Shown piece by piece: positions 4,039-35,058 of a stretch of DNA of 64,000 bases; the stretch's first letter is position 1; each line of letters opens with the position of its first letter. The stretch comes from an uncultured Eubacteriales bacterium. Its GTDB lineage: Bacteria > Bacillota > Clostridia > Oscillospirales > CAG-272. The notes under the pieces were generated by a model. The model was not told where the DNA came from and did not search any database. It saw only the letters and a program-made list of their open reading frames with translations. Position numbers and translations under genes: made by a program. The stretch lies in the NCBI GenBank assembly GCA_900545935.1, contig URAP01000007.1, forward strand, positions 4,463 to 68,462, given 5' to 3'.

Positions 4039-4105
4039 TCGCAACATAACACAGCGCTTCAGAATCGGTCAATTAAATATTATCTCCGCTCGGCAGAGCA
4101 GAAGA

Positions 4106-4138
4106 AGCAGTACGGCTTGTCACCGTGCTGCTTTTTTT
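4106..4138 (+). terminator. intrinsic terminator after the decarboxylase operon
   Basis: AGCAGTACGG-cttgtca-CCGTGCTGCT hairpin (one mismatch) followed by T7. Confidence 0.7.
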
Positions 4139-4239
4139 AATAGAATAAATCAAAATAAGGTCGAAAGGGATCCGCTTTCGCGCCCGGCTACACGGTGCGC
4201 CGTTATACACGGAAACGCAGAGCGGGTAAAGGCAGAGTC

Positions 4240-5079
4240 ATGAATGAGAGAATTATTACCGATTCGCATATCCGAAGCTTTGAGCAGCAGCTGATGCTCG
4301 AGGAAAAGAGCGCATGCACCGTGCGAAAATATCTGCACGATGTGCGTATGTTTGCCGACTTCTGCGCGGGCGCACCCGTGATGCAGGATGTGCTGATAGC
4401 ATACAAGGAGCAGCTGTGCGAAAAATATTCCGTTCGCAGTATTAACTCCATGCTTGCATCGCTCGGCAGTCTGTTTTCGCATCTCGGCTGGCACGAGCTG
4501 CATGTAAAGGGCATCCGAGTTCAGCGGCAGCTGTACTGCGCAGAGGAATCGGAGCTGACGCGGGAGGAGTATTATCGGCTGTGTCGTGCTGCGGAGCGCA
4601 GGAGCGCAAGACTCGGACTGATACTGCAGACAATCGGAAGCACGGGAATGCGCGTCAGTGAGCTGCGTTTCGTCACCGTAGAAGCGGCTCGGTGCGGGGA
4701 GGCTGTTGTACGCTGCAAGGGCAAGGCGCGGGTTATTTTTCTGGTTCCGGAATTGAGAAATCGGCTGCTTGATTATGCAGAACAGCATGGGATAGAGCGC
4801 AGTATGATATTTGTTACGCGGGGCGGGCTTCCCGTTGATAGGACAAACATCTGGCGGGATATGAAAACGGTCTGTGCCGACGCGGGCATAAGCCCGGATA
4901 AGGTGTTCCCGCACAATCTCAGACATCTGTTTGCGCGGGTGTTCTATGAAATGGATAAGGATATCGCGCAGCTCGCCGATGTGCTCGGTCACAGCAGCAT
5001 CAACACCACACGGCTGTACATCGTTTCTTCGGGCGCGGAGCACAGACGGAGAATGGAGGATATGGGACTGATAAAATAG
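4240..5079 (+). CDS. tyrosine site-specific recombinase (XerC/XerD/phage-integrase family)
   Basis: Catalytic motifs are present: GMRVSELR (Arg), HNLRHLFA (H-x-x-R), LGHSSINTTRLY (His...Tyr). The ORF is open from GTG 4195; ATG 4240 (MNERIITD...) is the more typical start. Confidence 0.85.
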   Translation: MNERIITDSHIRSFEQQLMLEEKSACTVRKYLHDVRMFADFCAGAPVMQDVLIAYKEQLCEKYSVRSINSMLASLGSLFSHLGWHELHVKGIRVQRQLYCAEESELTREEYYRLCRAAERRSARLGLILQTIGSTGMRVSELRFVTVEAARCGEAVVRCKGKARVIFLVPELRNRLLDYAEQHGIERSMIFVTRGGLPVDRTNIWRDMKTVCADAGISPDKVFPHNLRHLFARVFYEMDKDIAQLADVLGHSSINTTRLYIVSSGAEHRRRMEDMGLIK

Positions 5080-5159
5080 CCGTCGGGTGTGCGGCACCGA
5101 GTATCCTGCGCGGTTTATATCTCTGTATCGGTCTTATATGAGAAAGCGCCCGCTTGCCC

Positions 5160-5189
5160 GTAAATAAAAAAGGCTCTGCGTGTGCAGAG
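5160..5189 (-). terminator. minus-strand intrinsic terminator between the inverton and the recombinase gene
   Basis: On the minus strand: CTCTGC-acac-GCAGAG, then CC-TTTTTT-ATTT. The stem is short (6 bp). On the plus strand no T-tract follows the hairpin. Confidence 0.45.
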
Positions 5190-5243
5190 TGCGTCTGAGG
5201 ACGGTGCATATATTTCCTTATGAGCGCCGCGATAGGTGATAAT

Positions 5244-5270
5244 ACAACATAATATTGATTATGATGTTGT
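5244..5270. repeat. left recombination site / inverted repeat of the inverton
   Basis: ACAACATAATATTGATTATGATGTTGT. Palindromic arms surround an asymmetric centre (TATTGA). The first 20 nt are identical to the reverse complement of 5490-5509. Confidence 0.75.
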
Positions 5271-5312
5271 TTGAATTTGATGATATCGCCTAATGCTCGA
5301 TATTCACCCCTA

Positions 5313-5341
5313 AGTATACCAAATTAATCCTAAAATGTAAA
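5313..5341 (-). promoter_or_regulatory. sigma-A type promoter inside the inverton, currently pointing away from the 5534 operon
   Basis: Minus strand: TTTACA (5341-5336), 17 nt spacer, TGg-TATACT (-10 at 5318-5313; extended -10). Confidence 0.65.
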
Positions 5342-5484
5342 GGGCTTTTTCCGAAAAAGTTCAGATTTCTTTCATAAATATAGCTTTTTCGCGCCTATCT
5401 GCCGTGCTTCGCGAAACACAGGAGAATATCGACACCATTTTTGCGGCGCTCGTCTGATAATTTTGCTGCCCCACTGCTCCGTTT

Positions 5485-5510
5485 AACAACATAATCAATA
5501 TTATGTTGTT
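5485..5510. repeat. right recombination site / inverted repeat of the inverton
   Basis: AACAACATAATCAATATTATGTTGTT. Same arms as the left site, with the centre reverse-complemented (TCAATA). Ends 23 nt before the start codon at 5534. Confidence 0.75.
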
Positions 5511-5533
5511 ATTAAATCGAAGCGGAGGTAAAC

Positions 5534-8857
<3,324 letters not shown>

Positions 8858-8873
8858 ATTAGGGAGGGTATTT

Positions 8874-11800
8874 ATGGGCACCAAAAAACAGTTGTCAACA
8901 AGAATTGCTTCGTTTCTTTTAACAATGCTTATGGTGATCACGGCGGCACCCGTGACCGTGATCAGTGCAGAATCATCCGGCACGGCAGACGCTCAGCTAA
9001 TTATGGATGGCGTATTCGCTATGCCGGGCGAAACGGTAGAGATGAATATTACTCTGAAAAATGCGCCCACGGTTAAGAGTATGTCGATCTCAAACATCAC
9101 ATTTGATACCGACAAAATGACATTGACTGATGTTGAGTGGATATGTGATGCGGAAATTAAAAACTGGAATCAATCACAGGGGCGCGGCGTATTGGCGTTC
9201 AGTGAAAATACCGATGCTAACGGCACGGTCGTTAAACTGACGTTTGAAATCAATAAGATAGTTGATGACGCAGACGTAAATGTTATGTGTGCGATGTCAC
9301 TTAAACGAATGGATGATGCGGATAATGAAATACCCGTTCCCGTCAGTATTATTTCGGGCAGCGTCACGATTCGTAATGCGATCCGCGGAGACATGGACGC
9401 AAATGACAAGCTGAACAGCAATGATGCGGTTTATTTGCTGTATTATGTTATGTTCGGCAAGGATGACTATCCGATTCGCCAGAACGGTGATATGGACGGA
9501 AACGGCAAGGTAAACAGCAACGATGCTGTTTATCTGCTGTATCATGTCATGTTCGGAGAAGAAGATTATCCGCTTTACGAGCCGTGCGCGCATGCTCTGC
9601 AGCATGTCGCCGCAAAGGCTATGACATGTACGGTTGACGGTAATATTGAGTATTGGAGCTGCACAAAGTGCGGAAAGTGTTTCTCGGATGATGCCGCAGA
9701 AAATGAAGTTTCGCACGAAAGCACGATCCTGAAAGCGGCGCATAATGAAATTGTTAAAGAAGCTGTTCCGGCAACATCTACATCCGAGGGTTATACCGAG
9801 GGCATTTGGTGCGATAGATGCAATACATGGCTCAGCGGACATGAGAGAATAGAGCCCATCAAGCCGAATACAAGGTCTATTACATACAACATTGTAAACG
9901 AGGCGAAGCATCCGTATCTGAAAACACTGCAGATAGATGTGAGTGCGCTTGACTTTTCTTATGTACCGGGAGAGACCAAGGTGCTTAAAAATCTCGATCT
10001 CGGAAAATACGGATATACCTTTGATGGTTGGTACGACGGCTTCGGAGACGGAGCAGCACAGATAAAGGAAATACCCGCATCGGCGACCGAAAACATAGAA
10101 TTGTACGCGCACGTAACCGAGATGGTGTACGATATTACGTATAATCTTTATCAGACGCCGGTTACTTCTGCTCCGAGCAGTGCACAGCAGCACTATACCG
10201 TCAGCAAGGGTAATTCAAATCTGTACAACCCGGAGATAAATAATTACAAATTTCTCGGTTGGTATGATAATGACGGCACGGAGTACAAAACAATTCCGAT
10301 AGGCACTACCGGAAATATCACGCTTAATGCTTATTATACAAGTCTGCGTAACCTTGCCGTAAGCAAGAATGACAGCAATCCGATCATCCTTGAGGATCAG
10401 AATACGAATGTTGTTTACTTCACGTATGAGATCGGTGAAATTCGTAATATACCTCTTAATGCCGACAAGCCTTTTTGGGAGATCCAAAGTGTAGCCGGCT
10501 TGTCGCAGCAGGTTTCCGAAACCTATACAACGAGTATTACAAATTCGGAAGCGGAGAATGTCTCTAAGACTATTTCCGATATGACATCGAATTCCTCCAC
10601 CTGGACATTGTCCGAGAACTGGAATGACGTTACCACGGTAAACGAGACTTGGGCAAAGTCTATCGGAAAGACAACGGAGGAGTGCAAAACAGAGGCGACG
10701 ACGTCGTCGGGAACATTGAGTGTTTCTGCACAAAACGGCGGTTCGACCTATCATAAGACAGAGGACGGATCGACTGTATACGATTATGATACAAAGACCG
10801 TGACCAATGATAAGGGGCATCAGTTTGATGCAAGCTTAAGCGGCAATTATACTAATAAAACCGAGGTAAGCCTCGGCGCATCGTCGGAATACGGCGCAAC
10901 CGATTCTTATGGATATACAAGTAAGTCCAAGGACAATGAATATAATCATTCCGCATCGGGCTCCGACAAGGACGCAGTATCTTCCGGTATAAGACACGAA
11001 AACGGATTTGAATTCAATGGAGGACTTAAGTACGGATACCATAATAACACAAATACGGTTACTAAGACGGGAACCGATAAGGTTACGGTAAATTCCGAAA
11101 TTGATGAAAATACGAGCAGTTGGAATTATGCCGGTGCTTTCACCTCGACACAGCAGCACAGCACAAGTCAGACTGTGAGAAATGCATTGTCCGACATCGT
11201 TACAACTACTAAGGGATACGGCAACAGCTATTCTAAGGGTGGAAGTGATACCAAGACTCAAGGCTTCAGCTCTACCGCAAGTAACACGACGGGTACTTCG
11301 TCGTCTGTTACATACAGCAAGCTCGAGAGTAAAACTACGACCTCGACCTACAGCGTAGACGGTAGAATCGAAGGAAAATACAGAAGTATATTGGTAGGAA
11401 AGGCTCACGTGTTTGCCGTTGTCGGTTACGACTATGCTGCAAAATCATACTTTACATATACATTCAGTGTGATGGATGATAATGTGAAAGAATTTCTGGA
11501 TTATACACCTAAGGGCGGCTCTTTCGATGATTGTGAGTATAGCTGCCTGCCATTTGAAATTCCGTATGATGTTTTTGAATATGTCAGCGGAAGAACCTCA
11601 AAAACTACCGGCGTTCAGTATATAACCGATTCGCTTAACGGTACGGCTAAGGTTACCGGATATGTAGGAGAATCTACGGATGTTATTATTCCTTCCTATG
11701 TCTCCGACGGTAAGCAGGCATATAAGGTGACCGAAATATCCGGCAAGGCATTTGCCGGAAAGTCCGTTCGTTCCGTGTCTTTAGGTGAGTTTATTACGGA

Positions 11801-13439
11801 GATTCCCGACGGCGCGTTTAAGAACTGTACCATGCTTGAAGAGGTTGTAGGCAGCTTTACGTCTATCGGAAACGAAGCATTCTCGGGATGTGTAAATCTT
11901 ACCAACATGAATATTCCCTCGAATGTCGTAAAGATAGGAACAGACGCATTTGTCGGGGCGAAAAGTATAAGCGTAAGGGCGGTTAACTCTTTGGCTTCTT
12001 ACACTGAGGCGGTGCAGCAATTGCCCGACGCTTCGGATGAGGAAATTAGAGCAAAGCAAAAAGAAATTACGCAGGAATTTATAAAAGCAATTCTTGACAG
12101 CGGAGCGCAGAATATTGTCCTTGATATATCGTATATTGCAGAAGGAACACCGTTGTCACTTACCGTTCCCAAGATAGAATCCATTGAAATTAACGGCGGA
12201 ACAAAGACCTATAATGATTTCCGCATCGATTCTTCAGCTGAGAATACAACCTTGAACGAGCTGACGGTAGTCGATAGCCGCGGGACACCGATAAAGGTTG
12301 ATTCCGGAAAGCTTACGCTGCGCAAGGTGTTTGTTAACAGCAATACTACTGCGGTGATTCTAAAAAGGGACGGCGCAATTTTGTCGCTCTCTCAAGACAG
12401 CGCAGTTAAAACAAACTCGAGCTATGCGATCATAGGAAAGAACCTTGTTATCGAGTCGCAGGTGACTGCAGACGGTGCATCAGGTTATCTCGGTGTGACC
12501 GGCAACCTCGGCTATGTTAACTCTGTTTCCGGCGAAGATTACATAAGTATTTCAAACGGCGATTTGATCCAAATCTCGGAGGAAGAATTCGCAAGATATA
12601 TTAAAGGGCAAAGCACCGTCAGCTTTGATGCGAACGAGGGAATTCTTGACGCTTCCGAAGCTTCGTGCAGTGTTTTTTATGGAGAAAAAATAGGAACATT
12701 GCCCGTGCCGGCTCGTGACTATCATAATTTCTTGGGATGGTTTACGGAAAAGGACGGAGGTACGAGAATCACGGAAGATGATGTGGTTACAAGAACAGAT
12801 GATATCACCTTGTATGCGCATTGGGAGCTGAAGCCGCTGTCCGGTTGGGTAAGAGCCGACAGTGTTCCGGCGGACGGAGCGGCGGTGAATCGCTACTGGA
12901 GCTTTACCGTTTCATCGACAAGCGGTGTTGATGCGGTGAAGAGGAGCGAGTGGCAGCTCGTATCTTCTTCATCACAGTGGAGTGACTACGGCGCATGGAG
13001 CTCGTGGTCAAGAAACAGCATATCCTCGAGCGATTCGCGTCAGGTTCAGACAAAAACCGTAACGGACAGAGAGGCATATACCAACTATCGTTATTGGATC
13101 TATCGGTCGAGTGACGGTTATTCCTTCGGCACCAAAAATTACAAGTCTGACAGCGGTAGAATATGCACGAAATATGATGAAATAAATCTTACGTATCCTC
13201 TTGAATCGCTTGGCTACAGAGGACTTTACGGATACTATGACAGCAGTATGTTCTCGCATTCATATGATAATAAGTGGTTCTTCGGTGAATCGACCGATGT
13301 TCCGGCAGAAACACATACGGAGTATTCTTACAGAGATCGTTCGTTGGTTTATACTTATAGCTTTGAATCAACGTATGATCCGACCGTATACGAAAATGTA
13401 AGTAATGCCGTGGAGTGGGTTCAATACAGAGTAAAATAA
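8874..13439 (+). CDS. giant secreted multidomain protein: cohesin-like module, dockerin, Cys/His modules, Flg_new repeats, Ser/Thr/Asn-rich region, BspA-type leucine-rich repeats, Trp-rich C-terminus
   Basis: Signal peptide. GETVEMNITLKNAPTVKSMSISNITFD (cohesin-like). GDMDANDKLNSNDAVYLLYYVMFG and GDMDGNGKVNSNDAVYLLYHVMFG (two dockerin Ca-loop/helix repeats). GYTFDGWYDG, YKFLGWYDNDG and NFLGWFTEKDGG (Flg_new). EISGKAFAG...IPDGAFKNC...IGNEAFSGC...IGTDAFVG (BspA LRR). Confidence 0.8.
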   Translation: MGTKKQLSTRIASFLLTMLMVITAAPVTVISAESSGTADAQLIMDGVFAMPGETVEMNITLKNAPTVKSMSISNITFDTDKMTLTDVEWICDAEIKNWNQSQGRGVLAFSENTDANGTVVKLTFEINKIVDDADVNVMCAMSLKRMDDADNEIPVPVSIISGSVTIRNAIRGDMDANDKLNSNDAVYLLYYVMFGKDDYPIRQNGDMDGNGKVNSNDAVYLLYHVMFGEEDYPLYEPCAHALQHVAAKAMTCTVDGNIEYWSCTKCGKCFSDDAAENEVSHESTILKAAHNEIVKEAVPATSTSEGYTEGIWCDRCNTWLSGHERIEPIKPNTRSITYNIVNEAKHPYLKTLQIDVSALDFSYVPGETKVLKNLDLGKYGYTFDGWYDGFGDGAAQIKEIPASATENIELYAHVTEMVYDITYNLYQTPVTSAPSSAQQHYTVSKGNSNLYNPEINNYKFLGWYDNDGTEYKTIPIGTTGNITLNAYYTSLRNLAVSKNDSNPIILEDQNTNVVYFTYEIGEIRNIPLNADKPFWEIQSVAGLSQQVSETYTTSITNSEAENVSKTISDMTSNSSTWTLSENWNDVTTVNETWAKSIGKTTEECKTEATTSSGTLSVSAQNGGSTYHKTEDGSTVYDYDTKTVTNDKGHQFDASLSGNYTNKTEVSLGASSEYGATDSYGYTSKSKDNEYNHSASGSDKDAVSSGIRHENGFEFNGGLKYGYHNNTNTVTKTGTDKVTVNSEIDENTSSWNYAGAFTSTQQHSTSQTVRNALSDIVTTTKGYGNSYSKGGSDTKTQGFSSTASNTTGTSSSVTYSKLESKTTTSTYSVDGRIEGKYRSILVGKAHVFAVVGYDYAAKSYFTYTFSVMDDNVKEFLDYTPKGGSFDDCEYSCLPFEIPYDVFEYVSGRTSKTTGVQYITDSLNGTAKVTGYVGESTDVIIPSYVSDGKQAYKVTEISGKAFAGKSVRSVSLGEFITEIPDGAFKNCTMLEEVVGSFTSIGNEAFSGCVNLTNMNIPSNVVKIGTDAFVGAKSISVRAVNSLASYTEAVQQLPDASDEEIRAKQKEITQEFIKAILDSGAQNIVLDISYIAEGTPLSLTVPKIESIEINGGTKTYNDFRIDSSAENTTLNELTVVDSRGTPIKVDSGKLTLRKVFVNSNTTAVILKRDGAILSLSQDSAVKTNSSYAIIGKNLVIESQVTADGASGYLGVTGNLGYVNSVSGEDYISISNGDLIQISEEEFARYIKGQSTVSFDANEGILDASEASCSVFYGEKIGTLPVPARDYHNFLGWFTEKDGGTRITEDDVVTRTDDITLYAHWELKPLSGWVRADSVPADGAAVNRYWSFTVSSTSGVDAVKRSEWQLVSSSSQWSDYGAWSSWSRNSISSSDSRQVQTKTVTDREAYTNYRYWIYRSSDGYSFGTKNYKSDSGRICTKYDEINLTYPLESLGYRGLYGYYDSSMFSHSYDNKWFFGESTDVPAETHTEYSYRDRSLVYTYSFESTYDPTVYENVSNAVEWVQYRVK

Positions 13440-32103: not shown

Positions 32104-33324
32104 GTGAAAAATATGACAGAACAACAGATACTTCAGGCGCGTGCAGCATCGCGCATATACGAGCATGACGGCGAAGCGCTGTTATTTGACGCGACCGTTC
32201 TGTCGGTCGAAGGGATCGACGGCGGCTATGCGATAGAGCTTGACCGTACTGCTTTTTTTCCCGGCGGCGGCGGTCAGAGCGCCGATACCGGTGTCCTGTG
32301 CTTCGGCAGTACCGAGCTGCGTGTCTCGACATGTGAGCGCGGCGGGACGGTCGTATGTATTTCCGGACTGCCGATACCGGTCGGTACTGCTGTTACAGGC
32401 AAGGTAGACGCGCGTCCGCGCCTGTCGCGCATGCAGAGCCATACCGGAGAGCATATTATCTCCGGTATCGCGCATCGGATGTTCGGCTGCGAGAATCGCG
32501 GCTTTCATATGTCGGAAAATGAGGACGGTACTGTTTGCTTTTTTACCGTTGATACCGACCGCGAGCTTACCGAGGAGAACATCCGTGATATAGAAACGGC
32601 GGCAAATGAGGTGATAATGCGCAATATTCCGGTCGTCTGCCGTTTCCCGCTCCGCTCTGAGCTCGGTACCATCGACTATCGCTCGAAAAAGGAGCTGAGC
32701 GGTCCGGTTCGGCTTGTCGGTATCGAGAGCGTGGATCTGTGCGCCTGCTGTGCGCCGCATTTCTCACGTACAGGCAGCGTCGGCGCGCTGCGTATAACTG
32801 ACAGCATGCGCTATAAGGGAGGTATGCGCTTGACTGCGACTGCGGGTATGGCGGCACTGTTCGACGAGCGGCAAAAGTTCGGACAGCTTGCGCTTATCTC
32901 GCGCTCGCTCTCGGTAAAGCAGCAGGAGGCTGCCGCCGGAGTAGCGCGCCTCAGACAGGAGCTCGAGGCTGAAAAAAACAGGGCATCGGTACTTGAAATG
33001 CGTCTGTCAGAGCTTATCGCAGAGCATGCACACTGCGGTGTTGTATTCGAGCCGTCTCTCAGCCTCGCCGCACGCAAGCATACGGCTCAGGCGCTCGCAC
33101 GGCGGCTTGACGGTATAGGCGCGGTGCTCAGCGGCAGTGACGACACGGGCTATGATTACGTTATCGCACTGCCCGAGGGTCGGAGCGGCCTGCGCGCACT
33201 CGCACAGCAGCTCCGTACGCTCGGCGGCGGCGGAGGTGGGAGCGAGGAGCTTATCAGCGGCAGGATAAATGCGAGCCGTGATGAGATCTTAGCCTCGGGC
33301 TTTCTTCCGTATAAGGACAGCTAA
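32104..33324 (+). CDS. alanyl-tRNA editing protein (AlaX-L type: tRNA_SAD plus DHHA1-like C-terminus)
   Basis: HTGEHIISG (HxxxH) and CACCAPH (CxxxH) zinc motifs of the AlaRS editing domain. ATG 32113 is an alternative start. Confidence 0.7.
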   Translation: MKNMTEQQILQARAASRIYEHDGEALLFDATVLSVEGIDGGYAIELDRTAFFPGGGGQSADTGVLCFGSTELRVSTCERGGTVVCISGLPIPVGTAVTGKVDARPRLSRMQSHTGEHIISGIAHRMFGCENRGFHMSENEDGTVCFFTVDTDRELTEENIRDIETAANEVIMRNIPVVCRFPLRSELGTIDYRSKKELSGPVRLVGIESVDLCACCAPHFSRTGSVGALRITDSMRYKGGMRLTATAGMAALFDERQKFGQLALISRSLSVKQQEAAAGVARLRQELEAEKNRASVLEMRLSELIAEHAHCGVVFEPSLSLAARKHTAQALARRLDGIGAVLSGSDDTGYDYVIALPEGRSGLRALAQQLRTLGGGGGGSEELISGRINASRDEILASGFLPYKDS

Positions 33325-33360
33325 GGCATGAAATGATTTTCTGCACGAAAATACATAACA

Positions 33361-33446
33361 AATAAGAACACCCGAACGCGGAGTGATATGTGTCAGGAAA
33401 ACCGGGTACATATCAGAGAATGTAACTGCGTTCGGGTGTTCTTATT
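33361..33446. repeat. 86-nt extended hairpin between convergent genes (probable bidirectional terminator)
   Basis: A perfect 19-bp inverted repeat, AATAAGAACACCCGAACGC / GCGTTCGGGTGTTCTTATT, encloses a second stem (TGATATGT/ACATATCA). T-rich sequence follows. Confidence 0.6.
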
Positions 33447-33531
33447 TGTGTTGTTTTATTATTCCGATTGCAGAGCATGACGCATGCTCCCGCAAATTGT
33501 AAGGCATAGTGCATACTCTCGGCGGACGGCT

Positions 33532-35058
33532 TTATCTTCTTCTGCCGTCTCTGCGTATTCGGCTCTCGCCGTAGTCTCGGTCGCTGTGATAAGCAAACGG
33601 CCCCTCGGGCTGCGGCGGGCGCTGTGCGGATTGTCTCTGCCGTACCGCCTGTCCCTGCGAGGGGAGTGCCGTGCGTGCGGACCGACGCTGTACGGGAGTT
33701 GTATTTTGAATCCCGCGAGACGCTTGTCCCGACCGTGCGGTCTGTGCCGGCTGAACGGACGGCGCGCGGCGCGGAACGGTGATATCGGATGCGGATACTT
33801 GTCTGCTTTGTGCTGCTCCGTTCGATTGAGCGCTCCTTGCATTGCCGGCACTGCCCGCGCGTCTGCGCGCGAGCAGTATACGCTGCAGCTCCTCCGGAGT
33901 TTGTGTCTCTGCCATTGCGGGGGCTGAGACTGCTTTTTCGGCGGTGGGAGCTGTTGTGCGAGCAGAAGTTGCTGCGGGCGCTGCAGATGCCTTTGCCTGA
34001 GAGGCGGATGATCCGAGAGATGCTAAGGCTGAGCTTGCGCGGATGGCAGAACGCGATGACGAGTCTCTGCGTGTCGATTCATCGGAGACTAACACGGTCC
34101 TTGTATTACCGTTTTCTTTTCCTCTGCCGACGGCTCCGACGGATCTTTTGTCGGTTCGCTCCGCCGCTCCGGCGGACTGTGATATGCTTTTTGCCGATCC
34201 GACGAAATTTGCCGTGCCGGCAGCGGAGGTATCGCGCGGCGCAATCGACGAGCCATCAAGATTCTCGGTGCCGGTGTCCTCTGCCGGAGTCCGCATAGCG
34301 CGAACGAGGAAGATAACGACCGTTACGATTGCTGCGGCTATTATTGCGAGCAGCATATAGGGCAGTATCCCGCGCTCGCTGCCTTGAGCCTCGGTCTGCG
34401 TATCGGTGCTGCCGGATATCATGGCGGAGGAGCCGGAGGTCGGAGAGGGATTGACCCCGTACAGCGCACACAGCTTTCCGTACAAGGCGTCAAACAGCGC
34501 CTTTGTACCAACGCTGTATTCGCCTGCGGCAAAGCACGGCTCGAAGATGCTGTCGAGCATCGTTCTCAGCGACGAGACGGGCAGAGTGCTCTCAAGTCCG
34601 CTCCCTTTTGTCAGCCAATAGTTGCCGTCGTCTATTGCCATAAGCAGCAGGACACCGTTGTCCTTATTTTTATCGCCTATTTCGCGGTCGAGAAAATAGC
34701 GCTCTGCGTATCGGTCGATGGGTTCGCCGTTTAGACTGCGCGTTATGGCAATAACTATCTGAGCTCCGGTCAGCTTACACAGCGCATCGGAGCGTGAGCG
34801 GATATATTCACAGGTATCGCTGTCAATCACTCCCGAGGCATCGTCGACGTAGCCGTTCGGAGCATTGACCGCGCCGATCGGTAATGCCGCCGATATTGCG
34901 AGCAGCAGTGCGAGAATGATTGAAAGCAGAGGTACGGCGCGGCGCGCAGCGAGCTTTCGGTATGTAATTGCCGCTTGTGCGGTGCTGCTTGCGCTCGGTA
35001 AGCAGCATGCGCTGCGGTTGCCTGCCGATGGGTAAAGCCATGTATGACGGTGTTTCAA
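33532..35058 (-). CDS. TPM-domain protein with a TM helix and a long disordered basic/Ala/Ser-rich tail
   Basis: YVDDASGVIDSDT...LTGAQIVIAI...DNGVLLLMAIDD...GSGLE matches the TPM_phosphatase pattern. Followed by a TM helix (LLAIIAAAIVTVVIFLV) and a low-complexity C-terminus. Confidence 0.7.
   Translation of the reverse strand: MKHRHTWLYPSAGNRSACCLPSASSTAQAAITYRKLAARRAVPLLSIILALLLAISAALPIGAVNAPNGYVDDASGVIDSDTCEYIRSRSDALCKLTGAQIVIAITRSLNGEPIDRYAERYFLDREIGDKNKDNGVLLLMAIDDGNYWLTKGSGLESTLPVSSLRTMLDSIFEPCFAAGEYSVGTKALFDALYGKLCALYGVNPSPTSGSSAMISGSTDTQTEAQGSERGILPYMLLAIIAAAIVTVVIFLVRAMRTPAEDTGTENLDGSSIAPRDTSAAGTANFVGSAKSISQSAGAAERTDKRSVGAVGRGKENGNTRTVLVSDESTRRDSSSRSAIRASSALASLGSSASQAKASAAPAATSARTTAPTAEKAVSAPAMAETQTPEELQRILLARRRAGSAGNARSAQSNGAAQSRQVSASDITVPRRAPSVQPAQTARSGQASRGIQNTTPVQRRSARTALPSQGQAVRQRQSAQRPPQPEGPFAYHSDRDYGESRIRRDGRRR

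What the first reader, a model, noticed from the sequence alone, without database searches (positions are those of the whole stretch)
4240..5533. Recombinase-linked invertible promoter (inverton), captured in the OFF orientation, controlling the giant surface-protein operon
Two sites flank a 214-bp segment: ACAACATAATATTGATTATGATGTTGT (5244-5270) and AACAACATAATCAATATTATGTTGTT (5485-5510). Each site looks like a tyrosine-recombinase core, with 9-10 nt palindromic arms around an asymmetric centre. The centre is TATTGA on the left and its complement TCAATA on the right. This makes the sites inverted relative to each other: a 20-nt identical core at 5244-5263 versus the complement of 5490-5509. 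Because the arms are palindromic, only the centre defines orientation.

The enclosed segment carries one near-consensus promoter, on the minus strand (TTTACA, 17 nt, TGgTATACT at 5341-5313), pointing away from the 5534 gene. Only 23 nt lie between the right site and the ATG, and I find no other promoter. As assembled, the 5534-13439 operon should therefore be silent, and inversion would place the promoter roughly 90 nt upstream of the start codon.

Leftward OFF-state transcripts meet a minus-strand terminator (5189-5160) before reaching the recombinase gene (4240-5079, RHRY-type motifs). That fits an insulated switch.
Basis: partly seen in the sequence, partly recalled or inferred. Interest (0 to 1): 0.8.

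Follow-up and report, generated by a model that had tools for sequence, protein, structure and literature searches.

The report
Invertible promoter switch, seen both ways
A short promoter-carrying DNA segment between a recombinase gene and two large surface-protein genes of a human-gut Clostridia bacterium is a real flip-flop switch: 72 public assemblies of this species carry it pointing away from the genes (off) and 2 carry it flipped (on), which makes it a well-supported but ordinary example of bacterial phase variation.

Summary

**The switch.** Two dif-like sites (ACAACATAA-TATTGA-TTATG..., 5244-5270 and 5485-5510) lie in inverted orientation. They enclose 214 bp whose only strong promoter (TTTACA-17-TGgTATACT, 5341-5313) points back toward a Xer-like tyrosine recombinase gene (4240-5079).

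**Direct evidence.** Among 74 other contigs of the same species, 71 carry the window's orientation. Two (L066, L095; different samples, assemblers and recombinase variants) match the predicted inversion, with 6-7 mismatches in 361 nt against 159 for the unflipped form. One 142-kb scaffold ends on the last shared base of the left core.

**Comparative evidence.**
- 21 homologous recombinase loci from other Clostridia carry paired ACATAAT-N4-ATTATGT sites.
- The 4-nt centre differs between species, yet in 21 of 22 loci (window included) the right centre is the reverse complement of the left.
- One locus (L008) is flipped relative to its relatives.

**Cargo.** A lipoprotein with collagen-like tracts and a cohesin domain, then a cohesin/dockerin-like BspA-LRR protein.

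**Verdict.** This is a new member of a known kind, probably the Clostridia "inverton group 139 / invertase group 35" of PMC11892184. I found no published description of the dif-like site anatomy. Not shown: that this recombinase catalyses the inversion, or that expression depends on orientation.

The parts
4117..4146 (+). Promoter-like site (TTGTCA-18-TAGAAT) upstream of the recombinase gene; candidate promoter of the recombinase
   Evidence: Consensus scan only, 10/12. Function is inferred.
4240..5079 (+). Xer-like tyrosine recombinase (279 aa), the presumed invertase
   Evidence: Pfam Phage_integrase 3e-22 plus Phage_int_SAM_1. Best NCBIfam hits are XerA/XerD/XerC, all far below their cutoffs. 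The best PDB match is XerA 4a8e (7e-22), with R, HxxR, H and Y aligned. The exact protein is listed in 237 blocks of the public collection. Homologues in other Clostridia are also followed by paired inverted sites.
5164..5189 (-). Intrinsic terminator on the minus strand (stem CTCTGCACACGCAGAG plus T-run), placed to stop leftward transcripts from the switch promoter before they reach the recombinase gene
   Evidence: Terminator scan. The hairpin appears in the fold of the minus-strand transcript. It is conserved in the same-species alignment. Other family members leave only 21-52 nt between the recombinase stop codon and the left site, too little for such an element.
5244..5270 (.). Left recombination site: dif-like, with outer arm (T)ACAACATAA, 6-bp centre TATTGA and an imperfect inner arm TTATGaTGTTGT
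   Evidence: The core 5244-5263 is invariant in 71 same-species sequences. In the flipped contigs the imperfect inner arm has moved to the right-hand site, so crossover lies inside the 20-nt core.
5264..5489 (.). Invertible segment (everything between the two exact 20-nt cores; the interior proper is 5271-5484, 214 bp)
   Evidence: L066 and L095 equal the window with 5264-5489 reverse-complemented: 6 and 7 mismatches in 361 nt, against 159 for the unflipped form.
5313..5341 (-). Switch promoter TTTACA-17-TGgTATACT, pointing toward the recombinase in the window (OFF) and toward the 5534 gene after inversion (ON; predicted 5' UTR about 86 nt)
   Evidence: Chance occurrence is 17 in 5000 resamples. 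The hexamers and the TG are invariant in 71 sequences while neighbouring bases vary. About 15 family loci have a comparable extended -10 promoter at the same distance, with the -35 box 66-98 nt (mostly 89-98) from the start of the left repeat.
5485..5510 (.). Right recombination site: dif-like, with perfect arms AACAACATAA / TTATGTTGTT around centre TCAATA (the reverse complement of the left centre)
   Evidence: Invariant in 71 sequences.
5524..5528 (+). Ribosome-binding site GGAGG of the first cargo gene
   Evidence: Read directly from the sequence. Invariant in 71 sequences.
5534..8857 (+). Cargo gene 1: a 1107-aa lipoprotein. It has a signal peptide with lipobox LLGSC, about 30 GKSAYELA...EWLASLVG repeats interleaved with collagen-like Gly-X-Y tracts, and a C-terminal Flg_new plus cohesin domain
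   Evidence: Translation. Pfam Collagen 1e-31, Flg_new, and Cohesin at 24.5 bits when the C-terminus is scanned alone. NCBIfam collagen-like adhesin models match below their cutoffs. Length varies between strains, 1055-1122 aa among full-length calls.
5540..5545 (+). A6 homopolymer in codons 3-4 of cargo gene 1. One lineage carries A5, which shifts the frame
   Evidence: L050-L054 have ATGAGCAAAAATTC.
8874..13439 (+). Cargo gene 2: a 1521-aa secreted protein with an N-terminal cohesin domain, a dockerin-like repeat pair, Flg_new repeats and a BspA-type LRR_5 domain. It starts 16 nt after gene 1 with no terminator between them, so co-transcription is likely
   Evidence: Translation. Pfam LRR_5 1e-15 and Flg_new 1e-23. 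Cohesin 29.2 bits and a weak Dockerin_1 at 18.3 bits. No + strand terminator between the two genes.

Best explanation
This is a phase-variation switch, an invertible promoter.

**Proposed mechanism.** The Xer-like tyrosine recombinase encoded at 4240-5079 is proposed to bind the two dif-like sites at 5244-5270 and 5485-5510. It would exchange strands within their matching 6-bp centres (TATTGA / TCAATA) and so invert the roughly 226-bp segment between them.

**OFF state (the window).** The segment's only strong promoter fires leftward. Its transcripts are stopped by a dedicated minus-strand terminator at 5189-5164 before they reach the recombinase gene. The two-gene surface-protein operon (5534-13439) has no promoter, because only 23 nt holding the RBS separate the right site from the ATG.

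**ON state (after inversion).** The promoter sits about 86 nt upstream of the ATG. It would then drive a membrane-anchored lipoprotein with collagen-like tracts that ends in a cohesin domain, and a cohesin/dockerin-like BspA-LRR protein. Together these probably form a surface adhesin assembly.

**Shown:** the anatomy; that both orientations exist in natural populations of this species with junctions exactly at the sites; and that the recombinase-plus-paired-site module is conserved across Clostridia.

**Inferred:** which enzyme does the flipping, that the promoter is active, that expression follows orientation, and what the cargo does.
For: 1. **Anatomy confirmed at all coordinates**.

2. **Both orientations exist in the same species.**
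- Of 74 sequences with a readable interior (window included), 72 have the window's orientation and 2 are flipped.
- L066 is from ENA ERZ27267249 (contig named k115_, recombinase variant P0123). L095 is from Logan SRR24884229 (variant P0125).
- Both match the predicted inversion of 5264-5489 with 6-7 mismatches in 361 nt, against 159 for the unflipped form. The flanking genes are identical.
- The imperfect inner arm travels with the segment, which places the crossover inside the 20-nt core.

3. **Scaffold break at the branch point.** Scaffold L049 (142.6 kb) ends on the last base of the left core. That is the base where the two orientations diverge, as expected for an assembly-graph branch.

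4. **Family-level evidence.**
- 22 loci (window included) carry two ACATAAT-N4-ATTATGT sites. In the other 21 the left site starts 22-53 nt after the recombinase stop codon. The two sites lie 233-299 nt apart, start to start.
- The N4 centre takes 16 different values across loci, yet the right centre is the reverse complement of the left in 21 of 22.
- L008 has collinear flanks and an inverted interior relative to L025, L012, L009 and L006.
- About 15 loci carry an extended -10 promoter at the same position and in the same orientation.

5. **Selective constraint within the species.** There are 30 variable columns among 305 in 71 sequences. None falls in the 66 nt that make up the site cores, the -35, the extended -10 and the RBS (P = 4e-4).

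6. **The recombinase looks intact.** It has a complete catalytic set and is Xer-like. The sites share the CATAA-N6-TTATGTT skeleton and 6-bp centre of E. coli dif, GGTGCGCATAATGTATATTATGTTAAAT (sequence from PMC2731167).

7. **No alternative element.** The segment matches no Rfam family, and the window holds no other copy of the sites.
Against: - No reads were available, so within-sample mixtures are inferred only from the L049 scaffold break.
- The flipped state is rare among consensus assemblies (2 of 74), and the contigs are not all independent (for example, L053 and L054 come from the same run).
- The first targeted scan for the flipped left junction in the metagenome collection found nothing. 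The control scan showed that collection holds only 6 contigs of this species.
- Promoter and terminator are consensus matches only.
- Nothing shows that this recombinase, rather than a housekeeping Xer enzyme acting on the dif-like sites, performs the inversion.
- No + strand terminator between the recombinase gene and the 5534 gene was convincingly identified, so read-through from the recombinase promoter could give some OFF-state expression.
Confidence: 0.87

Rival explanations
1. The segment inverts at these sites, but the enzyme is the cell's housekeeping Xer recombinase(s) acting on the dif-like sequences. The adjacent recombinase would then be accessory or unrelated.
For: The sites share the dif skeleton CATAA-N6-TTATGTT. 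No experiment links the adjacent gene to the reaction.
Against: - The recombinase gene and the paired sites travel together in 22 loci from different Clostridia, with the left site 22-53 nt after the stop codon in 21 of them.
- Some genomes carry several such modules: RUG13073 has L026 and L029, and Lapin-004 bin96 has L011 and L013.
- Both arms of each site are of one type, which fits a single-recombinase system.
- The recombinase keeps a full catalytic set and is well conserved within the species: 202 members in its 90%-identity cluster.
Confidence: 0.07
2. The flipped contigs reflect rare, fixed evolutionary inversions (for example, accidental recombination between short repeats) or assembly artefacts, not a programmed reversible switch.
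For: Only 2 of 74 consensus sequences are flipped, and no read-level data were examined.
Against: - The two flipped contigs come from different samples, different assembly sources and different recombinase variants (P0123, P0125). OFF contigs exist for both variants, so inversion has recurred.
- The repeat (20 nt exact, 25 nt with one mismatch) is short, so repeat-induced misassembly seems unlikely. I did not check the k-mer sizes the assemblers used.
- Junctions fall exactly at the site cores.
- Spacer covariation across 22 loci and invariance of the sites within the species indicate selection for recombination competence.
- An independent flip is seen in the family, L008 against L025.
Confidence: 0.04
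3. The switch mainly regulates the recombinase (through antisense or orientation-dependent control) or produces a small RNA, and the downstream operon has its own unrecognised promoter.
For: In most family members the leftward promoter would read straight into the 3' end of the recombinase gene, because only 21-52 nt separate the two. The strong OFF bias could reflect self-locking.
Against: - In this species a minus-strand terminator sits between the promoter and the recombinase gene.
- No promoter-like site reaching 9/12 lies on the + strand between the switch promoter and the ATG (5342-5533), and the 23-nt gap after the right site leaves no room for one.
- No Rfam family matches the region.
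- The two roles are not exclusive: fimS also shows orientational control of fimE (my own knowledge).
Confidence: 0.05
4. The inverted repeats are the terminal repeats of a small non-autonomous mobile element (MITE-like), or a single chromosomal dif site with a decayed duplicate.
For: Structurally it is a short AT-rich segment bounded by 25-nt inverted repeats. The sites are dif-like.
Against: - The window holds only one copy and there is no target-site duplication.
- The module sits at a fixed position next to a homologous recombinase in many species, each with its own species-specific centre.
- Several modules occur in one genome, whereas dif is single-copy (established knowledge).
- The interior inverts in place between unchanged flanks.
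Confidence: 0.01

Closest known systems
Clostridia 'inverton group 139' linked to tyrosine 'invertase group 35' in the hCom2 defined gut community (PMC11892184)
   Same: - Intergenic invertons in class Clostridia (32 of 33 members, 17 strains), with a tyrosine recombinase within 5 kb.
- The sizes of the two published examples match this family: repeats of 14 and 26 nt, interiors of 205 and 227 bp. L023 from Enterocloster has 26-nt arms and a 207-bp interior.
- Read-level flipping was shown there for Clostridium sp. D5 and Intestinimonas butyriciproducens, including dependence on surface attachment.
   Different: Identity of the two families is not proven. The repeat motif and strain tables of that paper are not held as text, and I could not fetch those genomes. 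That paper gives no site anatomy, makes no comparison with dif, and does not include this species or its cargo.
E. coli fimS switch with FimB/FimE
   Same: A roughly 300-bp promoter-bearing segment bounded by short inverted repeats. It lies next to the tyrosine recombinase gene(s) and upstream of a surface-adhesin operon. The population is biased toward OFF.
   Different: - The Fim recombinases are a distinct small-invertase subfamily. The NCBIfam tyrosine-type DNA invertase models hit this protein only at 1e-6, against 2e-34 for XerA and 1e-27 for XerD.
- fimS repeats are 9 bp and are not dif-like (my own knowledge).
- Here there is one recombinase gene, not two.
Clostridioides difficile RecV-dependent switches (cwpV, flgB, cmrRST; PMC5903667, PMC12282940)
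   Same: Tyrosine-recombinase-mediated inversion of short intergenic segments that control surface proteins in a member of Clostridia.
   Different: - RecV is encoded away from most of its switches and serves several of them.
- The cwpV and flgB switches act after transcription starts, not by moving the promoter (my own knowledge).
- Here the recombinase is adjacent, serves only this one switch within the 64-kb window, and the segment carries the promoter.
Mycoplasma Xer1-type recombinases that flip vpma/vsp loci (PMC2268961, PMC5634654)
   Same: A Xer-like tyrosine recombinase encoded next to the locus, catalysing inversions that switch expression of variable surface lipoproteins.
   Different: - Those systems shuffle one promoter among several lipoprotein genes through multiple sites.
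- Here a single promoter cassette flips between two sites, giving simple ON/OFF control.
- Sequence relatedness to Xer1 was not tested.
Single-recombinase Xer/dif modules (XerS/difSL, XerH/difH, archaeal XerA/dif; PMC2731167, PMC3325230)
   Same: One Xer-like recombinase genetically linked to its own dif-like site with a 6-bp centre. The best structural and NCBIfam matches of this recombinase are XerA and XerD.
   Different: - Those modules have one site per chromosome, at the replication terminus, and resolve chromosome dimers.
- Here two sites lie in inverted orientation about 240 bp apart around a promoter, several modules can occur in one genome, and the outcome is inversion.

Membership tests
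Invertible promoter (inverton) with a cis-encoded tyrosine invertase | A pair of inverted repeats bounding a short (about 100-800 bp) intergenic segment | tested here: met
   A 25-nt inverted repeat, 96% complementary, with a 20-nt exact core. It is unique in the window, with 0 matches expected by chance.
Invertible promoter (inverton) with a cis-encoded tyrosine invertase | Both orientations of the segment exist in populations of the same organism, with junctions at the repeats | tested here: met
   72 sequences in the window's orientation and 2 flipped contigs (L066, L095) that match the predicted inversion to within 6-7 of 361 nt. Read-level coexistence within one sample was not testable. 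The L049 scaffold break is only suggestive.
Invertible promoter (inverton) with a cis-encoded tyrosine invertase | A promoter inside the segment that faces the regulated gene in one orientation only | tested here: met
   Met at consensus level only. TTTACA-17-TGgTATACT lies on the minus strand, with a chance rate of 17 in 5000. It is invariant within the species, sits at a conserved position across the family, and is on the + strand in L066. Promoter activity is not testable here.
Invertible promoter (inverton) with a cis-encoded tyrosine invertase | An adjacent site-specific recombinase with intact catalytic residues | tested here: met
   Phage_integrase domain at 3e-22. R, HxxR, H and Y align to XerA 4a8e.
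Invertible promoter (inverton) with a cis-encoded tyrosine invertase | That recombinase catalyses the inversion | not testable with these tools
   Supported only by conserved linkage of gene and sites in 22 loci.
Invertible promoter (inverton) with a cis-encoded tyrosine invertase | Expression of the downstream gene depends on orientation | not testable with these tools
   No transcript data. Inferred from the lack of any other promoter and the 23-nt gap.
Inverton group 139 / invertase group 35 (PMC11892184) | Repeat sequence homologous to the group 139 motif | not testable with these tools
   The motif logos and tables are not held as text. Only dimensions, taxonomy and recombinase class agree.
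Xer/dif chromosome-dimer resolution system | A dif-like 28-bp site: two roughly 11-bp arms around a 6-bp centre, with a CATAA...TTATG core | tested here: met
   The right site is TAACAACATAA-TCAATA-TTATGTTGTTA, against E. coli dif GGTGCGCATAA-TGTATA-TTATGTTAAAT.
Xer/dif chromosome-dimer resolution system | A single site per chromosome, giving resolution and not inversion | tested here: not met
   Two sites in inverted orientation 242 nt apart. Inversion is observed. Several modules occur in one genome within the family.
Xer/dif chromosome-dimer resolution system | The recombinase scores as a XerC/XerD/XerA/XerS equivalog | tested here: not met
   All NCBIfam Xer models score far below their cutoffs: XerA 119 against 220 bits, XerD 97 against 330, XerC 90 against 335, XerS 50 against 267.
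FimB/FimE-type DNA invertases | The protein matches the tyrosine-type DNA invertase subfamily models | tested here: not met
   PRK09871 and PRK09870 score 28 and 27 bits against cutoffs of 222 and 221.

The most novel reading that the evidence does not exclude
The window's switch belongs to a very large family of 'dif-invertons' in gut and rumen Clostridia that has not been described mechanistically.

On this reading, a Xer-derived single recombinase was domesticated together with a duplicated, inverted copy of its own dif-like site, turning a chromosome-dimer-resolution module into a portable promoter-flipping cassette. The cassette has been placed in front of varied cargo: cohesin/dockerin-assembled adhesins, BspA-LRR proteins, and DUF2971/AbiGi-like, HerA-like and SPFH proteins.

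The strong bias toward the recombinase-facing orientation (72:2 in this species, and most other species' assemblies) would reflect built-in directional or antisense control, not only selection.
Probability: 0.3. Interest if true: 0.6.

Novelty: new member of a known kind. Interest (0 to 1): 0.45.

Why it matters
Phase-variable surface proteins shape how gut commensals adhere, evade IgA and phage, and persist.

Most mechanistic knowledge of invertons comes from Bacteroides, E. coli and C. difficile. Here is a clean example, verified in nature, in an uncultured human-gut Clostridia species:
- the sites are defined to the base;
- there is a candidate enzyme;
- the cargo architecture is predicted (a lipid-anchored stalk with collagen-like tracts ending in a cohesin domain, plus a dockerin-like BspA-LRR partner);
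- there is a population-level estimate of state (about 97% OFF among assemblies).

The family-wide rule gives a simple, searchable signature for finding thousands of related switches: ACATAAT-N4-ATTATGT sites whose centres always match in inverted orientation. It also points to an evolutionary route from Xer/dif dimer resolution to phase variation. For annotation pipelines, it explains why this large operon appears to lack a promoter.

Tried and rejected
1. **Targeted scan for the flipped junction.** An exact-match scan of metagenome contigs for the predicted flipped left junction gave 0 hits. The control scan showed the collection holds only 6 contigs of this species, all unflipped. That negative was therefore uninformative. 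The flipped state was found later through exact-protein look-ups of recombinase variants.

2. **First look-ups all unflipped.** The first 10 contigs (L032-L041), the 6 control-scan contigs (L042-L047) and the next 7 readable contigs (L048, L050-L055) all carried the window's orientation. For a while this argued against inversion in this species.

3. **Folding.** RNA folding of the minus-strand OFF transcript and of the + strand 5080-5540 gave nothing beyond the site hairpins and the terminator (z = -1.9 and -2.3). I could not show a + strand terminator that would block read-through from the recombinase gene.

4. **Link to inverton group 139.** I tried to confirm that this family is 'inverton group 139' of PMC11892184. 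The link stays an inference.

5. **Naming the organism.** The cluster members carry no organism names. Homologues are annotated Acutalibacteraceae, Ruminococcaceae, Oscillospiraceae or Clostridia MAGs.

6. **Literature.** Searches for the site motif and for invertons together with dif and XerD found no prior description.

7. **Rejected readings.** A MITE, the true chromosomal dif site, a riboswitch or leader (Rfam gave 0 hits), and a gene-altering shufflon (the repeats are intergenic).
Full report
**1. Checking the observation**

- The left site ACAACATAATATTGATTATGATGTTGT is at 5244-5270 and the right site AACAACATAATCAATATTATGTTGTT at 5485-5510. The repeat finder reports them as a 25-nt inverted repeat, 96% complementary, 216 nt apart.
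- The 20-nt exact core occurs once on each strand in the 64-kb window and nowhere else, even with 3 mismatches allowed. Shuffles give 0.
- The generic motif ACATAAT-N4-ATTATGT also occurs only at these two places.
- The centres TATTGA and TCAATA are reverse complements, so the two otherwise palindromic sites are inverted relative to each other.
- The interior (5271-5484) is 214 bp and AT-rich: 35-43% G+C, against 53-62% in the flanking genes.
- Its best promoter-like site is on the minus strand: TTTACA, 17 nt, TGgTATACT (5341-5313), 10/12 with an extended -10. Resampling the interior gives a site this good in 17 of 5000 trials.
- A minus-strand intrinsic terminator (stem 5189-5174, then CCTTTTTTAT) lies between the switch and the recombinase gene.
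- Only 23 nt, including GGAGG at 5524-5528, separate the right site from the ATG at 5534.

**2. The proteins**

*Recombinase.* The 4240-5079 product (279 aa) has a Phage_integrase catalytic domain (3e-22) and a SAM-like N-terminal domain.
- Its best matches among solved structures are XerA of Pyrococcus abyssi (4a8e, 7e-22), then XerD, another XerA and XerH. The catalytic R, HxxR, H and Y align.
- NCBIfam places it nearest XerA/XerD/XerC, but far below every equivalog cutoff. It is only marginally similar to the FimB/FimE-type invertase models.

*Cargo gene 1.* The 5534-8857 product is a 1107-aa lipoprotein ([24 protein letters not shown]...).
- It has about 30 copies of a GKSAYELA...GY.G...EWLASLVG unit interleaved with collagen-like Gly-X-Y tracts.
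- It ends in Flg_new and cohesin domains.

*Cargo gene 2.* The 8874-13439 product (1521 aa) starts 16 nt later.
- It has a signal peptide, a cohesin domain (29 bits), a dockerin-like repeat pair (weak, 18 bits), Flg_new repeats and a BspA-type LRR_5 domain.
- No + strand terminator lies between the two genes.

A cohesin/dockerin-assembled surface adhesin is a reasonable inference. It was not tested.

*Upstream.* The upstream genes are oxaloacetate decarboxylase subunits, which are housekeeping genes.

**3. Does the segment really invert?**

*Same-species contigs.* The exact recombinase protein is listed in 237 blocks of the public assembly collection. I collected 74 other contigs of the same species, from human-gut metagenomes in ENA, NCBI, JGI and Logan. 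They came from exact look-ups of the window's protein and seven near-identical variants, plus an orientation-neutral DNA pattern.

*Tally.* With the window that makes 75 sequences. One of them (L049) stops before the interior, leaving 74 with a readable interior.
- 72 have the window's orientation.
- 2 are flipped: L066 (ENA ERZ27267249) and L095 (Logan SRR24884229).
- Both flipped contigs match the window with 5264-5489 reverse-complemented to within 6 and 7 of 361 nt, against 159 mismatches for the unflipped form. The few differences lie at positions that vary within the species, and the flanking genes are the same.

*Where the crossover falls.*
- The flipped left junction reads GTGATAATACAACATAATATTGATTATG|TTGTTAAACGG.
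- The flipped right junction reads CAAACAACATCATAAT|CAATATTATGTTGTTATTAAATCG.
- The left site's imperfect inner arm has therefore moved to the right site. That places the crossover inside the 20-nt core.

*Independence.* The two flipped contigs come from different samples and assembly sources, and carry different recombinase variants (P0123, P0125). Both variants also occur with the unflipped state, so the inversion has recurred.

*Scaffold break.* A 142.6-kb scaffold (L049) ends on the last base of the left core. That is the base where the two orientations diverge, which is what an assembly-graph branch caused by mixed orientations would look like. This is circumstantial.

**4. The family**

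A scan of one genome per species found 31 loci encoding homologues. The 29 near-full-length homologues are 46-66% identical. They come mostly from rumen and gut Clostridia MAGs, plus Enterocloster and Diplocloster isolates.

- *Paired sites.* 22 loci, the window included, carry two ACATAAT-N4-ATTATGT sites. In the other 21 the first site starts 22-53 nt after the recombinase stop codon. The second lies 233-299 nt further on.
- *Covariation.* The arms are conserved. The 4-nt centre takes 16 different values across loci. Within a locus the right centre is the exact reverse complement of the left in 21 of 22 cases; L017 has one mismatch. This is the pattern expected of a tyrosine-recombinase crossover region: free to drift, but it must match between partners.
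- *Promoter position.* About 15 loci carry a TTGACx-17-TGnTAnnnT promoter on the strand facing the recombinase, with the -35 box 66-98 nt (mostly 89-98) from the start of the left repeat, as in the window.
- *Flipped relatives.* L008 has flanks collinear with L025 but an interior that aligns only when reverse-complemented: score 128 against 20, and similarly against L012, L009 and L006. L008 and L025 share an orthologous downstream BspA-LRR/CBM48 protein. L018 also has its best promoter (TTGACA-17-TATAAT) facing the cargo.
- *Copy number.* Some genomes hold two modules: RUG13073, and Lapin-004 bin96.

**5. Constraint within the species**

In 71 gap-free sequences (24 distinct) of 5235-5539 there are 30 variable columns. 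None falls in the two site cores, the -35, the TG plus -10, or the RBS. For those 66 nt, P = 4e-4 under uniform placement. Variation does occur in the promoter spacer (5325), just downstream of the -10 (5304-5311), and in the rest of the interior.

**6. Site anatomy and likely mechanism**

Each site reads as two arms of the same type around a 6-bp centre. The right site is TAACAACATAA-TCAATA-TTATGTTGTTA.
- This is the layout of a dif site, and it shares dif's inner arm bases. E. coli dif is GGTGCGCATAA-TGTATA-TTATGTTAAAT (sequence taken from PMC2731167).
- Together with the Xer-like recombinase, this suggests a single-recombinase Xer/dif-type module in which a second, inverted site turns resolution into inversion.

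From the established tyrosine-recombinase mechanism (an inference here), four protomers synapse the two sites. They exchange strands at the edges of the matching centres through a Holliday junction, and the interior inverts.

*OFF (the window).* The promoter fires leftward and meets the minus-strand terminator. This terminator sits in about 130 nt that other family members lack, since their gap between stop codon and left site is only 21-52 nt.

*ON.* The promoter lies about 86 nt upstream of the ATG, and the 5' UTR includes the right site.

**7. What remains unproven**

- That this recombinase is the enzyme.
- That the promoter and terminator work.
- That the operon is silent in OFF. I could not identify a convincing + strand terminator against read-through from the recombinase promoter at 4117-4146.
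- That the two cargo proteins assemble.
- The cause of the 72:2 bias. It could reflect selection against expression in the gut, directional recombination, or antisense control. Nothing here distinguishes these.

**8. Comparison with what is known**

Functionally this is a classic invertible promoter. Related systems include fimS with FimB/FimE, the Bacteroides Tsr-controlled surface proteins, the C. difficile RecV switches and the Mycoplasma Xer1/vpma system.

The closest published entity is probably 'inverton group 139' linked to tyrosine 'invertase group 35' in the hCom2 community study (PMC11892184).
- 32 of its 33 members are from Clostridia, across 17 strains.
- The two published examples have repeats of 14 and 26 nt, interiors of 205 and 227 bp, and a recombinase within 5 kb.
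- Read-level switching was shown in Clostridium sp. D5 and Intestinimonas butyriciproducens.

Dimensions and taxonomy agree with the family found here, but I could not compare sequences.

I found no paper in the searchable library that describes dif-like sites as inverton repeats.

**9. Verdict**

It is a new, well-documented member of a known kind of system. Interest is moderate: a specialist would not be surprised that a gut Clostridia adhesin operon is phase-variable. Three things are useful additions:
- base-level verification in natural populations;
- the family-wide site rule;
- the resemblance to Xer/dif.

Noticed in passing
window 5540-5545; loci L050-L054: The A6 tract in codons 3-4 of the lipoprotein gene is A5 in one lineage (recombinase variant P0004; 5 contigs from JGI 3300029621, ERZ824600, ERZ28656527 and ERZ918328/ERR911983). 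That shifts the frame, and I read a stop after about 15 codons. Gene callers then start at an ATG inside the right site (window 5503), which has no Shine-Dalgarno sequence. This could be a second, slipped-strand layer of phase variation, or decay of a gene that is usually OFF.
   Followed up: partly
L049 (ENA ERZ28617158 scaffold_96), locus end at 2524 = window 5263: A 142.6-kb scaffold ends on the last base of the 20-nt left core. That is exactly where the flipped and unflipped continuations diverge, which suggests mixed orientations in that sample.
   Followed up: partly
window 5534-8857 and its counterparts in L032-L105: The first cargo gene varies strongly between strains. Full-length products range from 1055 to 1122 aa. 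L040 is split into 75 + 779 aa. In L048 the gene after the switch is 641 aa with LRR_5/Flg_new. Several contigs end about 1010-1030 nt after the recombinase stop codon, inside the SAYELA/collagen-like repeat array, probably because the repeats break assemblies.
   Followed up: partly
L018:4856-5228: One family member has doubled sites. Two left sites lie 40 nt apart (4856, 4896) and two right sites 40 nt apart (5168, 5208), all with the same centre (TCGC/GCGA), forming a 65-nt inverted repeat. Its strongest promoter faces the cargo side. Nested sites could allow more than two states.
   Followed up: no
L002, L010, L028: These homologous recombinase loci have only the left site within 700 nt, although they have 2.6-4 kb of downstream sequence. 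They may be locked or decayed switches.
   Followed up: no
L001, L004, L016, L029, L012 (genes downstream of the right site): The cargo of related switches is not only surface proteins. It includes DUF2971/AbiGi-like proteins (L001, L004), an SPFH plus zinc-ribbon protein (L016), a 1087-aa HerA/DUF87-type ATPase (L029) and an S26 signal peptidase (L012). This hints that some family members may switch phage-defence-like genes.
   Followed up: partly
window 33350-33457: A 30-nt inverted repeat (90% complementary, 48 nt between the arms) lies between ORFs 32104-33324 (+) and 33532-35058 (-), which converge if both are real genes. It is most simply a bidirectional terminator hairpin and does not resemble the switch sites.
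   Followed up: no
window 4100-4140: A hairpin followed by a T-run (GCAGTACGG...CCGTGCTGC TTTTTTT) lies just after the oxaloacetate decarboxylase alpha-subunit gene. It probably terminates that operon and overlaps the recombinase's promoter-like site. The scan missed it on the + strand, and I judged it by eye only.
   Followed up: no
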